Shown: positions 216 to 3,552, counted from the stretch's first letter. The stretch: DNA of 64,000 nt from Promethearchaeota archaeon (GCA_048939995.1 JBHLOY010000010.1:81887-145886); one strand, 5' to 3'. Notes: generated by a model not told the origin, from the sequence alone. A program made the numbers and translations.

Positions 216-2305
216 GTGATTAATTTAAGCAAAGCTCATAAACATAAGTGGATCATTACTAGTGCTTGGCCTTATGTGAACGCAAATATTTCTTGAGAGC
301 TTTAAGAATTAGCGTACTTCCACATCTAGGCAACTTAATAGGAAGCACATTATCAGCAGATGTATTTGCTCGCTTTCTACGAATGAAGGGAGATGAAGTA
401 TTATTTGTATCTGGTTCAGATATGCATGGAACTCCCGTAGCAGTGGAAGCTAAAAAAACAGGTGTTTCAGTAGAAGAATTAGCTATAAAAAATCACAATA
501 AAATTAAGGAATTGCATAAAAAATGGAAAATTTCATTTGATAATTACACTCAAACGCATAATCCTACACATATCGAATTTGTGCAGAAATTTTATTTAGA
601 TATCCAAAAAAACGGATATATCTTAGAAAAAGATATAGAATCCCTTTATTGTGAAAAAGATAACCTTTTTCTTCCTGATAGGTTTGTAGAGGGGATTTGC
701 CCTCACTGTGGAGCTGAGAAAGCGAGAGGGGATCAATGTGACAATTGCCAGAAGTTATTGACACCTCTCGAGCTTAAAGAATCGTACTGTTCGATATGTG
801 GCGCAAAACCTATACTTCGAAAAACTAAACATTGGTATATGGATTTTCCTAGGCTTCAAAATCAATTGAAGAAATTAATTGAAAAAAATGAAATTATCCC
901 TCAAAATGCTCGGCAAATGTGCTTAAACAGTATCGAGGAAGGTCTTCCTGAAAGAGCCATTACGCGAGATTTAGAATGGGGTATTCCCGCACCGTTTAAA
1001 GGAGCTGAAGGAAAAACGATATATGTATGGTTTGAGGCTGTGTTAGGTTATGTTAGTGCTTGTTTAGAATGGGCTGACAAGCTAAAAAATCAACCAAAAA
1101 AATTTGATTACTTTTGGAAAGATAAAAATACCAAATCGGTTTATTTTATAGGGAAGGATAATATCATCTTCCATTTAATTGTGTTTCCAGGACTCCTAAT
1201 GGCATATAATGCCGATAAAAAGGATTCTGATAAATTAGTTCTTCCATATAACGTCTCTTCTACAGAATGGTTAATGCATGAAAATGAGAAATTTTCAAAA
1301 TCTAGAGGAATAGGGATTTGGATTGATGAGGCGTTAGACCTGGCACCATTGGATTATTGGAGATTCAATTTAGTTTATAATCGTCCGGAATCAAGTGATA
1401 CCTCATTTTTATGGTCTGAATTTGAAAATAACATTAAGACTTTAAATGATAACATAGGAAATTTCATTCATAGGACATTAACCTTTATTGATAAACAATT
1501 CAATAAGATCATTCCAGAGAAAGTTGAATATGACAAAGTAGATAAGATTTTTGTTGAAAAAATCAATAGAATAGGCGTTGATGTCGGAAAAAGCTTAGAT
1601 AATTTTAGTTTACGTAAGGCAATACGAGATGTTGTGAGTTTTGGAAAAGAAGGAAATGTTTATTTAAACGAAAAGGCACCATGGCATTTAATAAAGAAAG
1701 ATAAAAAAAAAGCGGGACATGTATTTAATATATGCGCTCAAGCGGTATATGCTTTGGCAGTTCTTTTAAGCCCATTTACTCCTGGGACAGCAAACAAAAT
1801 TATTTCATTTTTGAATGATCCTAAATTATCCGAATCATCTTGGGATAGTATTAATGAAAATGCTGTCAGTGCAGGAGTTAAAATTAAAAGTCCAGAGCCA
1901 ATTTTTCAAAAATTAGATATTGAAGAAATAAAGAATAATTTAAATAAAATCAGAGAAGAAAAGCAAAAGGGAGGAAAAATTGAATTGATATCTTATGATT
2001 ATTTTAAAAAGTTGGATATTAGAGTCGCAAAAATAGAATCTATTGAGAAGGTACCTAAAGCAGATAAACTATATAAATTAGGAATCGATATTGGGAATGA
2101 GAAAAGGACACTCGTAGCAGGTTTAGCGGAACACTATAAAATAGATGAGCTAATTAATAAAAAAATTATAGTGCTAACAAACTTAGAGCCAAGAAAATTA
2201 CGAGGAATTCAAAGTGAAGGAATGCTGCTTGCTGCTGTGGATAATGAAAAGGTATCTATTTTAATACCAGACAAAGAAATTGAGATCGGGGCAAAAGTAG
2301 AATAA
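216..2305 (+). CDS. metG: Methionine--tRNA ligase, intron-containing: join(216..285,318..2305), 685 aa, with C-terminal tRNA-binding OB domain
   Basis: Exon 1 from GTG 216 gives ...KWIITSAWPYVNA; exon 2 gives PHLGN (HIGH), GSDMHG, Zn-knuckle CxxC motifs, YVWFEA, GKDN, KFSKS (KMSKS) and a Trbp-like C-terminus (LDIRVAKI...SEGMLL). The ORF-track start at 266 is an artefact of the intron. Confidence 0.95.
286..317 (+). other. Predicted 32-nt archaeal bulge-helix-bulge (BHB) intron in metG mRNA
   Basis: Central helix ACGC(280-283)/GCGT(312-315); 3-nt bulges AAA(284-286) and ACT(316-318); inner stem TATTTCTTGAG/TTTAAGAATTA; outer exon stem ATGTGA/TC(C)ACAT. Cutting after the 2nd nt of each bulge gives in-frame GCA-ATT-CCA-CAT. 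Confidence 0.88.
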
Positions 2306-2307
2306 AT

Positions 2308-3552
2308 CTATAATTTTAAAGAAAATACTGGATTTAAGCGGGCTATAACTTCTCCTAGATCTAGTTGTAGCATTTTTAAGATTACGTCTCTTCCTCGATA
2401 TTCAAATTGTAATTCTTTAACATTCTTAATTATTTTTAATTTATTACGATCTTTTACTAACTCACACACAAAATATCTCTGGTCATTGTATTCCAATATT
2501 TTTTTCACATTTTGAATATCTGGCAAATTATAGCCTCCTCCATGTGCTAAAATATCTACATTTCTCAATAATTCCAATAATTCCAATTTTACCGCTCTTT
2601 TTAAAAAATTATTATTTTTTAAGGTTATCTCTGAAAGATTTTTCTGTCCCATAAATAGATAACAAGCCATATCTGCTCTAAGAGCGGTAGGAAAAACATT
2701 GGAGGTGATATACTTACAATTGAGATCAGTACAATTACTCCCTAAATACATATTATTATAATCTTTTAAAAACTGGTGTGGTTGATTGCAAATTATTTGA
2801 AAATCATTACCAAATAGATGATTTGCAATGAGTAATCTTTTTCTGCTTGAAAAATTCAGAGCTTTTTTATTAAAATCTAAGTACTCATCAGCCTCAGAAT
2901 CAATAAGGATATATTGTTTTCCAAAAATGGTATTCTCTTCTAATGCATGTTCTTTTAATGTTTTAGATTGATCAATATACAAACCAATTCCATGTTTATC
3001 ATCTCTGAATTCTGGAGCAGAACCATGTATAAAAAAAGTATATGGTGGAAAATCAATATCAGTTAGATTTTTAGTTTTAAAACAATTAATGAAATGGTTT
3101 GAGATCCCATAGTCCCAATTAATTAGAATGTCTTTATAATATAATTCTGTGGATTTTATTTCATCAATCTTCTTAATAAGATCATAGGGGTCTGGTAGTT
3201 CATATAATCCTCCACATAATATACCACAACAATTAGGTTTTATATTTAGAAAAATTAATTTTTCATTTCCAGATCCCCAATTTAATCTACCGCCATATCC
3301 GAGACCAGAATTCCATCTGAAATTATTTTTTGATATTGTTTCATCTGGAGAGGAGATAAATGCTGCTTTAGGTTCAAACCCATATTTTTCTTGAATAAGT
3401 TGAAATTGAGCAAGTCCATACTTCATATTAGCTCTACATAGTTTTGAAGCGCCATCATTTAAACCAGTTGAAAAAATAAACTTTTCTGCTCTACTTAGTA
3501 ACTCAACTTTATCCATTTGAGATAAATTCTCAGAAATACTAGAGGTCGCCAT
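2308..3552 (-). CDS. Divergent RtcB-family RNA ligase
   Basis: RtcB motifs in order: SPD, NCCG, SNHF, IHGS, EYL..ALNF..KR, PHQ, AHGGG, EYR..V..VIARLNPV..LK. Confidence 0.75.
   Translation of the reverse strand: MATSSISENLSQMDKVELLSRAEKFIFSTGLNDGASKLCRANMKYGLAQFQLIQEKYGFEPKAAFISSPDETISKNNFRWNSGLGYGGRLNWGSGNEKLIFLNIKPNCCGILCGGLYELPDPYDLIKKIDEIKSTELYYKDILINWDYGISNHFINCFKTKNLTDIDFPPYTFFIHGSAPEFRDDKHGIGLYIDQSKTLKEHALEENTIFGKQYILIDSEADEYLDFNKKALNFSSRKRLLIANHLFGNDFQIICNQPHQFLKDYNNMYLGSNCTDLNCKYITSNVFPTALRADMACYLFMGQKNLSEITLKNNNFLKRAVKLELLELLRNVDILAHGGGYNLPDIQNVKKILEYNDQRYFVCELVKDRNKLKIIKNVKELQFEYRGRDVILKMLQLDLGEVIARLNPVFSLKL

What the first reader, a model, noticed from the sequence alone, without database searches (positions are those of the whole stretch)
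216..3552. Intron-split metG next to a divergent RtcB ligase: candidate mRNA-splicing module
Seen: an RtcB-like gene ends 2 nt from the metG stop codon (convergent). Established: RtcB joins the 2',3'-cyclic phosphate and 5'-OH ends left by EndA, and in animals RTCB ligates XBP1 mRNA after IRE1 removes a 26-nt frameshifting intron. The 32-nt metG intron also shifts frame (32 mod 3 = 2). Inference: this may be a non-spliceosomal mRNA-splicing switch coupling MetRS output to RNA endonuclease/ligase capacity, with a dedicated ligase paralog. The adjacency could also be coincidental.
Basis: partly seen in the sequence, partly recalled or inferred. Interest (0 to 1): 0.88.

Follow-up and report, generated by a model that had tools for sequence, protein, structure and literature searches.

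The report
tRNA-type intron splits Asgard metG
The only methionyl-tRNA synthetase gene of this Asgard (Lokiarchaeia) archaeon is broken by a 32-base tRNA-style intron that very probably is cut out of the messenger RNA, which I found published for only one archaeal coding gene (cbf5), but the RtcB-like gene next door is an old neighbour, not a dedicated splicing partner.

Summary
Both parts exist; the module does not hold up. metG, the only copy, carries a 32-nt insert (286-317) folding as a canonical bulge-helix-bulge (BHB); cutting by the archaeal rule restores YVNAIPHLGN, as in intron-less relatives. The insert recurs in independent assemblies and two related species; an unrelated 31-nt intron lies one base downstream in another genus: two separate gains. 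No spliced RNA was seen. The neighbour has the RtcB fold (Z 20.8) and keeps four of five metal ligands and the nucleophilic His, but has no Asp95 counterpart. Five genomes where it was not found still have interrupted dnaG, rnhB or EF-1alpha and canonical RtcB. This genome has RtcB, archease, two EndA subunits and more such inserts (EF-1alpha, dnaG, rpl11, MoxR). Best reading: a cbf5-type mRNA intron handled by the ordinary tRNA-splicing enzymes. The scan already reported such introns in other Lokiarchaeia genes, and this RtcB-fold family, on other DNA; no earlier metG case came up.

The parts
216..285 (+). metG exon 1 (probable GTG start; 23 codons plus 1 nt; first Rossmann strand, WIITSAWPYVNA)
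   Evidence: aligns to residues 1-23 of intron-less relatives; missed by public gene calls, which start inside the intron
286..317 (+). 32-nt BHB intron (type A), frameshifting, with TGA in the exon-1 frame; inner hairpin 287-296/302-311
   Evidence: conserved in G011 and G022 and in independent assemblies
274..325 (+). BHB motif: outer exon helix 274-279/319-325, central helix 280-283/312-315, 3-nt bulges 284-286 and 316-318, predicted cuts after 285 and after 317
   Evidence: cut rule from established knowledge of archaeal EndA
318..2305 (+). metG exon 2 (HIGH-motif PHLGN onward, zinc knuckles, anticodon domain, C-terminal tRNA-binding domain); spliced product 685 aa
   Evidence: P. abyssi-type MetRS 1rqg, E 1.6e-169; single copy in the genome
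2308..3552 (-). Divergent RtcB-fold protein, 414 aa; old syntenic neighbour of metG, not part of the intron's machinery as far as the comparative data show

Best explanation
The 32-nt insert is a cbf5-type archaeal pre-mRNA intron. The metG transcript folds into a BHB; the cell's ordinary two-subunit splicing endonuclease cuts after the second base of each bulge; the canonical RtcB (with archease) joins the exons; this restores the frame and the loop just before the HIGH motif. Shown: sequence, geometry, conservation, presence of the enzymes. Inferred: cutting, joining and which ligase acts. It is one of several such introns gained patchily in conserved genes of this Lokiarchaeia family, most likely tolerated because splicing is efficient rather than selected as a switch. 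The RtcB-fold neighbour is a separate, ancient family; my best guess (about 55%, inferred) is a metal/GTP-dependent His-guanylylating enzyme acting on nucleic-acid phosphate ends (repair or capping); its position beside metG predates the intron.
For: Only BHB-compatible excision restores the homologue-length motif; metG is single-copy and otherwise intact; three species share the intron, with 95.7% of cells paired against 31-42% for slid controls; a 99.7%-identical strain has 2 of its 12 differences inside the intron, both compatible with pairing; a second, unrelated 31-nt intron one base downstream in genus g7 gives the same peptide under the same cut rule and forms a separate clade. Two EndA subunits, canonical RtcB and archease are present. 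Other motif-splitting BHB inserts in this genome: EF-1alpha, dnaG, rpl11, MoxR. RtcB-like gene linked to 53/63 intron-less metG and not found in five genomes that have such inserts and canonical RtcB. Precedent: cbf5 (PMC2738675); Asgard EndA is of the broad-specificity two-subunit type (PMC5829648).
Against: No spliced transcript or peptide was seen. Only four distinct type A sequences, with no two-sided compensatory change. G011 and G022 each have one mismatch in the central helix, and type B introns do not fold better than shuffles, so they depend on relaxed recognition. The five genomes lacking the RtcB-like gene are draft MAGs (92-99% complete). My motif-only genome scan did not beat its decoy except in the top tail.
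Confidence: 0.8

Rival explanations
1. One reading: metG intron plus the adjacent RtcB-like gene form a dedicated, XBP1-like splicing module.
For: Stop codons 2 nt apart; all 6 intron-bearing metG genes have the neighbour; RtcB fold with His337 nucleophile kept.
Against: Same linkage in 53/63 intron-less metG; linkage older than the introns; genes are convergent, so not co-transcribed; family present in 56/121 genomes across the phylum and beside unrelated genes elsewhere; canonical RtcB plus archease present; other introns in the genome have no such neighbour that I saw.
Confidence: 0.03
2. The RtcB-like protein is a general second ligase or end-healing enzyme that shares the load of tRNA and mRNA splicing in intron-rich Lokiarchaeia, without being specific to metG.
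For: Present in 113/126 genomes of the intron-rich family; Cys109, Asn152, His153, His176, His259, His337, Lys413 match RtcB Cys98, Asn202, His203, His234, His329, His404, Lys480.
Against: No Asp95 counterpart by sequence (Pro106) and the HRKG lysine is missing; not found in five genomes with interrupted essential genes; present in family f2 (10/13), where metG and dnaG were uninterrupted in all genomes checked.
Confidence: 0.08
3. The intron is spliced by the general enzymes but is used as a regulatory valve that ties MetRS (and EF-1alpha, uL11, DnaG) output to splicing capacity.
For: Two independent gains at adjacent positions in the same essential motif; other introns also hit translation and replication genes; unspliced RNA cannot encode intact MetRS.
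Against: 83 of 89 evaluable relatives lack it; patchy gains across many unrelated genes fit drift; exon sequence at this site already supplies half a BHB, which can explain the hotspot; motif-splitting inserts are also the ones easiest to detect.
Confidence: 0.05
4. No splicing: MetRS is made by frameshifting, ribosome hopping or an internal TTG start, or the gene is a pseudogene or an assembly error.
For: In this genome the exon-2 frame is open back through the insert, with TTG at 294; public gene callers use it.
Against: An internal start loses the first Rossmann strand (ITSAWPYVN); a frameshift would add about 10 residues beside the HIGH motif, seen in none of 83 relatives; G145 has stops in both frames inside the insert; no second metG; independent assemblies agree.
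Confidence: 0.04

Closest known systems
cbf5 pre-mRNA intron of Sulfolobales and Desulfurococcales (Watanabe 2002; Yokobori 2009, PMC2738675)
   Same: Short BHB intron inside a coding sequence, at a catalytic motif, must be removed for a working enzyme; host has a two-subunit EndA; patchy presence among relatives; missed by gene callers.
   Different: Different phylum (Asgard) and gene (essential aminoacyl-tRNA synthetase); two independent gains one base apart rather than one gain with losses; one of several such introns in the genome, while cbf5 here is uninterrupted; splicing shown experimentally for cbf5, not here.
HVO_1309 5' UTR BHB intron of Haloferax volcanii (PMC7714728)
   Same: EndA substrate in an mRNA.
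   Different: Lies outside the coding sequence and does not shift the frame.
XBP1 (IRE1 + RTCB) non-spliceosomal splicing (PMC10630183)
   Same: Short frameshifting intron (26 nt; both 2 mod 3); end chemistry expected to be the same, joined by an RtcB.
   Different: XBP1 is cut at two stem-loops by a stress-activated nuclease and joined by the same RTCB that splices tRNA, not by a dedicated paralog; no regulated nuclease or switch is evident here.
Canonical RtcB (PF01139; P. horikoshii 4dwq, T. thermophilus 2epg; PMC9745838)
   Same: Fold (Z 20.8, 305 residues, rmsd 3.5), Cys98, Asn202, His203, His234, His329, His404 and C-terminal Lys counterparts.
   Different: 13% identity, about 75 residues shorter, no Pfam hit, no Asp95 counterpart by sequence, HRKG lysine missing, Glu206 position variable; coexists with a canonical RtcB.

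Membership tests
Archaeal BHB pre-mRNA intron (cbf5 type) | 4-bp central helix flanked by two 3-nt bulges with inner and outer helices | tested here: met
   canonical in this genome; one central mismatch each in G011 and G022
Archaeal BHB pre-mRNA intron (cbf5 type) | Cutting after the second bulge base on each strand restores the homologue-length reading frame | tested here: met
   (YVNAIPHLGN; 685 aa without stop); same for the type B intron
Archaeal BHB pre-mRNA intron (cbf5 type) | Intron-less alleles exist in relatives at the same site | tested here: met
   83 of 89 evaluable metG loci are intron-less
Archaeal BHB pre-mRNA intron (cbf5 type) | Host encodes a splicing endonuclease (two-subunit type) and an RNA ligase | tested here: met
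   two EndA genes, one with the Tyr/His/Lys triad motifs and one without the His motif; RtcB and archease
Archaeal BHB pre-mRNA intron (cbf5 type) | Spliced mRNA and EndA cleavage demonstrated | not testable with these tools
   no read-level RNA data; homologue searches returned no near-identical full-length protein
RtcB family (PF01139) | RtcB fold | tested here: met
   model pLDDT 96.4; Foldseek top 16 all RtcB; Z 20.8 against next 4.9
RtcB family (PF01139) | Match to the curated family model | tested here: not met
   no hit; 1 of 83 family members at E 0.007
RtcB family (PF01139) | His404 nucleophile and metal ligands Cys98, His203, His234, His329 | tested here: met
   His337, Cys109, His153, His176, His259 invariant or nearly so in 83 sequences; numbering from PMC9745838
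RtcB family (PF01139) | Asp95 metal ligand | tested here: not met
   KPNxCG instead of DIxCG; Pro106 at that spacing; conserved Asn107 might substitute, which I could not check on coordinates
RtcB family (PF01139) | GTP/Mn-dependent joining of 3'-phosphate and 5'-OH ends | not testable with these tools
   needs biochemistry
   6/6 against 53/63
   not found in G021, G066, G071, G142 (profile search) and G115 (single protein), all with interrupted dnaG, rnhB or EF-1alpha; draft genomes, so absence is not proven

The most novel reading that the evidence does not exclude
In this Lokiarchaeia family, endonuclease-dependent mRNA splicing is a genome-wide layer that reaches essential translation and replication genes (MetRS, EF-1alpha, uL11, DnaG), and the cell uses its rate to throttle their output, possibly with the divergent RtcB-fold protein as an accessory: a prokaryotic counterpart of IRE1/XBP1-type regulated splicing in the eukaryotes' closest relatives.
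Probability: 0.1. Interest if true: 0.9.

Novelty: new member of a known kind. Interest (0 to 1): 0.6.

Why it matters
In the papers I could search, cbf5 is the only archaeal coding sequence with an endonuclease-spliced intron (PMC2738675, PMC7714728); a 2026 census of Asgard introns covers tRNA genes only (10.64898/2026.10.13.758758). A frameshifting intron in the single, essential metG, gained twice at adjacent bases, plus similar inserts in EF-1alpha, dnaG and rpl11 of the same genome, means pre-mRNA splicing must be routine in these Asgard archaea, and that public annotations of these genes have wrong N-termini. Because MetRS is essential, junction reads must exist in any active population, which makes the claim directly testable. 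The RtcB-fold neighbour is a separate open question: a widespread, unmodelled family with an altered metal site.

Tried and rejected
Dedicated ligase and module: rejected by linkage census and by genomes lacking the gene. G025 was dropped as a control because its metG was not found either, so the whole locus may be unassembled. Assembly artefact: rejected. First structure model from a shallow alignment was poor (pLDDT 56) and its fold search uninformative. Single-sequence Pfam and PDB searches missed RtcB. Motif-only genome scan: 1045 real against 1045 decoy candidates; only scores of 37 or more separate (4 against 0), so I give no genome-wide intron count. Metagenome pattern scans gave no new intron-bearing metG: first none, second 74 matches of which three were metG, all intron-less. 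Search for a spliced-type protein from transcript assemblies found none. Rfam: no match. Promoter and terminator scan: chance level, and not built for archaea. Neighbours of distant RtcB-like homologues show no shared context. The Myxococcus RtcB3 paper was not held, so I could not compare with that paralog. No complex prediction was run. Literature search for a metG BHB intron: 0 papers.

Full report
Observation. The window comes from a Lokiarchaeia (Promethearchaeota) genome, judged by the names on close homologues. metG begins at GTG 216, reads WIITSAWPYVNA and stops at TGA 295-297; the rest of the enzyme, from PHLGN on, is in another frame up to TAA 2303-2305. A 414-aa ORF on the other strand ends at 2308, two bases away.

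The insert is a BHB intron by every test I could run on DNA. Eight placements of a 32-nt excision restore WPYVNxxPHLG. Only 286-317 has BHB geometry: central helix 280-283/312-315, bulges 284-286 and 316-318, a 10-pair inner hairpin with one U-U mismatch, and an exon-exon outer helix. Cutting after the second base of each bulge, the established EndA rule, gives YVNAIPHLGN, which is the exact motif in many intron-less relatives. The spliced frame is 685 codons with no stop. There is no second metG. The insert is present in an independent MAG and in a Logan assembly. In the Logan strain 2 of the 12 differences in 4 kb fall in the 32-nt insert; one repairs the U-U mismatch and one turns U-A into U-G. 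Over four sequences 95.7% of cells pair, against 31-42% for slid controls, but there is no two-sided compensatory change, so covariation is weak evidence.

Distribution. Of 90 metG loci from the class, 6 have an intron, 83 do not, and 1 is cut off. Three (G000, G011, G022) share the 32-nt type A intron. Three of genus g7 carry a 31-nt intron of unrelated sequence, one base further downstream, which gives the same peptide under the same rule; its hairpin is weaker and does not beat shuffles. In a MetRS tree the two groups are separate, well-supported clades, and type A is sister to four intron-less genomes (quick method, midpoint root; one row under 400 aa left out). With different sequence and different phase, two independent gains is the simplest reading.

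The neighbour. Pfam and single-sequence PDB searches see nothing. A profile of 83 homologues reaches RtcB weakly, and the model built from it (pLDDT 96.4) matches only RtcB: Foldseek top 16 hits, and Z 20.8 to TTHA1785 against 4.9 for the next entry. Cys109, Asn152, His153, His176, His259 and His337 correspond to Cys98, Asn202, His203, His234, His329 and His404 of P. horikoshii RtcB (PMC9745838). The Asp95 position is Pro, and the HRKG lysine is missing. It probably still binds metal and GTP (inference); whether it ligates RNA is open. The family was found in 127/151 genomes of the class and 56/121 of the phylum, and distant homologues sit beside HD and HAD hydrolases, radical SAM enzymes, a tRNA methyltransferase or an aldolase, one fused to a kinase domain: no common splicing context.

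The module test. The RtcB-like gene lies tail-to-tail with all 6 intron-bearing metG genes, with 53 of 63 evaluable intron-less ones in the same family, and with 0 of 15 outside the family. The linkage is therefore family-wide synteny that predates both introns. The genome has an intact canonical RtcB tail-to-tail with archease on contig C19, and two EndA subunits. It also has other motif-splitting inserts with BHB geometry: EF-1alpha (33 nt, in GHIDHGKST), dnaG (34 nt, in GAIFGQTEGLL), rpl11 (37 nt), a MoxR ATPase (30 nt) and two unnamed genes; cbf5 and rnhB are uninterrupted. dnaG, rpl11 and rnhB were leads from earlier notes of the scan; EF-1alpha came from my own scan. Five genomes (92-99% complete) in which the RtcB-like gene was not found all have canonical RtcB and at least one such insert: G021 and G071 in rnhB, G066, G071, G142 and G115 in dnaG, G066 also in EF-1alpha. 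These are drafts, but in G021, G066 and G142 the metG locus is assembled and lacks the neighbour. So the paralog seems dispensable for this kind of splicing.

Mechanism. Shown: the geometry, the frame restoration, the conservation and the presence of the enzymes. Inferred: the pre-mRNA is cut by the two-subunit EndA, which in Asgard archaea carries the loop linked to relaxed specificity (PMC5829648), and joined by canonical RtcB. Unspliced RNA would give a 26-residue peptide. An internal TTG start or a frameshift cannot give a normal MetRS, and the type B intron of G145 has stops in both frames. Patchy gains in many unrelated genes favour tolerated, near-neutral introns over a switch, but regulation is not excluded.

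Relation to what is known. This works like, and by the testable features belongs with, the cbf5 intron of Crenarchaeota (PMC2738675), described in 2020 as the only other mRNA BHB intron besides a Haloferax 5' UTR case (PMC7714728). I found no paper on a metG BHB intron or on Asgard coding-sequence introns; the library lacks most subscription papers, and the 2009 paper notes that introns in other archaeal coding genes had been predicted. Earlier notes of this scan report the same kind of intron in other Lokiarchaeia genes and the same RtcB-fold family on other DNA; these are leads, not support.

Verdict. The intron is real and very probably spliced (about 0.9 for splicing by EndA, 0.8 for the whole best explanation); the dedicated-ligase module is rejected (0.03). 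Interest 0.6: it rests on the intron and on what it shows about mRNA splicing in Asgard archaea, not on the adjacency.

Noticed in passing
G000 C11:167313-167345 (-), locus L144: EF-1alpha is split in its P-loop by a 33-nt BHB insert with stop codons; G025 has nearly the same insert and G066 a different 32-nt frameshifting one at the same site.
   Followed up: partly
L145 (dnaG), L146 (rpl11), L149 (MoxR): 34-, 37- and 30-nt inserts with 4/4 central pairs restore conserved motifs; the dnaG intron varies from 29 to 43 nt across family f1 and was not seen in the 13 genomes checked outside it.
   Followed up: partly
G000 C17:377423-377452 (-) and C23:175418-175447 (-), loci L147, L148: The two best-scoring BHB candidates of my scan (44 and 41), each a 30-nt in-frame insert with a stop codon, in genes I did not identify.
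   Followed up: no
P0277-P0279, P0289, P0291, P0292: Public gene calls for the intron-bearing metG start inside the intron or downstream and lack exon 1.
   Followed up: yes
P0142: An RtcB-like homologue fused to an APH-type kinase domain in a cluster with radical SAM enzymes, an aminotransferase, an SDR and HAD hydrolases, which hints at small-molecule substrates in part of the family.
   Followed up: no
(e.g. G027, G041, G044, G049, G196, G234): Some Asgard genomes have a second or third, much more distant copy of the RtcB-like family (26-29% identity).
   Followed up: no
L151:3843-5021 (immediately upstream of metG, just outside the window): A 392-aa vWA/Ssl1-like protein with C-terminal cysteine-rich fingers precedes metG on the same strand in this genome and in two relatives.
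   Followed up: no
whole genome: ARAGORN finds only 24 tRNA genes, 15 with introns, in a 98%-complete genome, suggesting many heavily interrupted tRNAs are missed.
   Followed up: no
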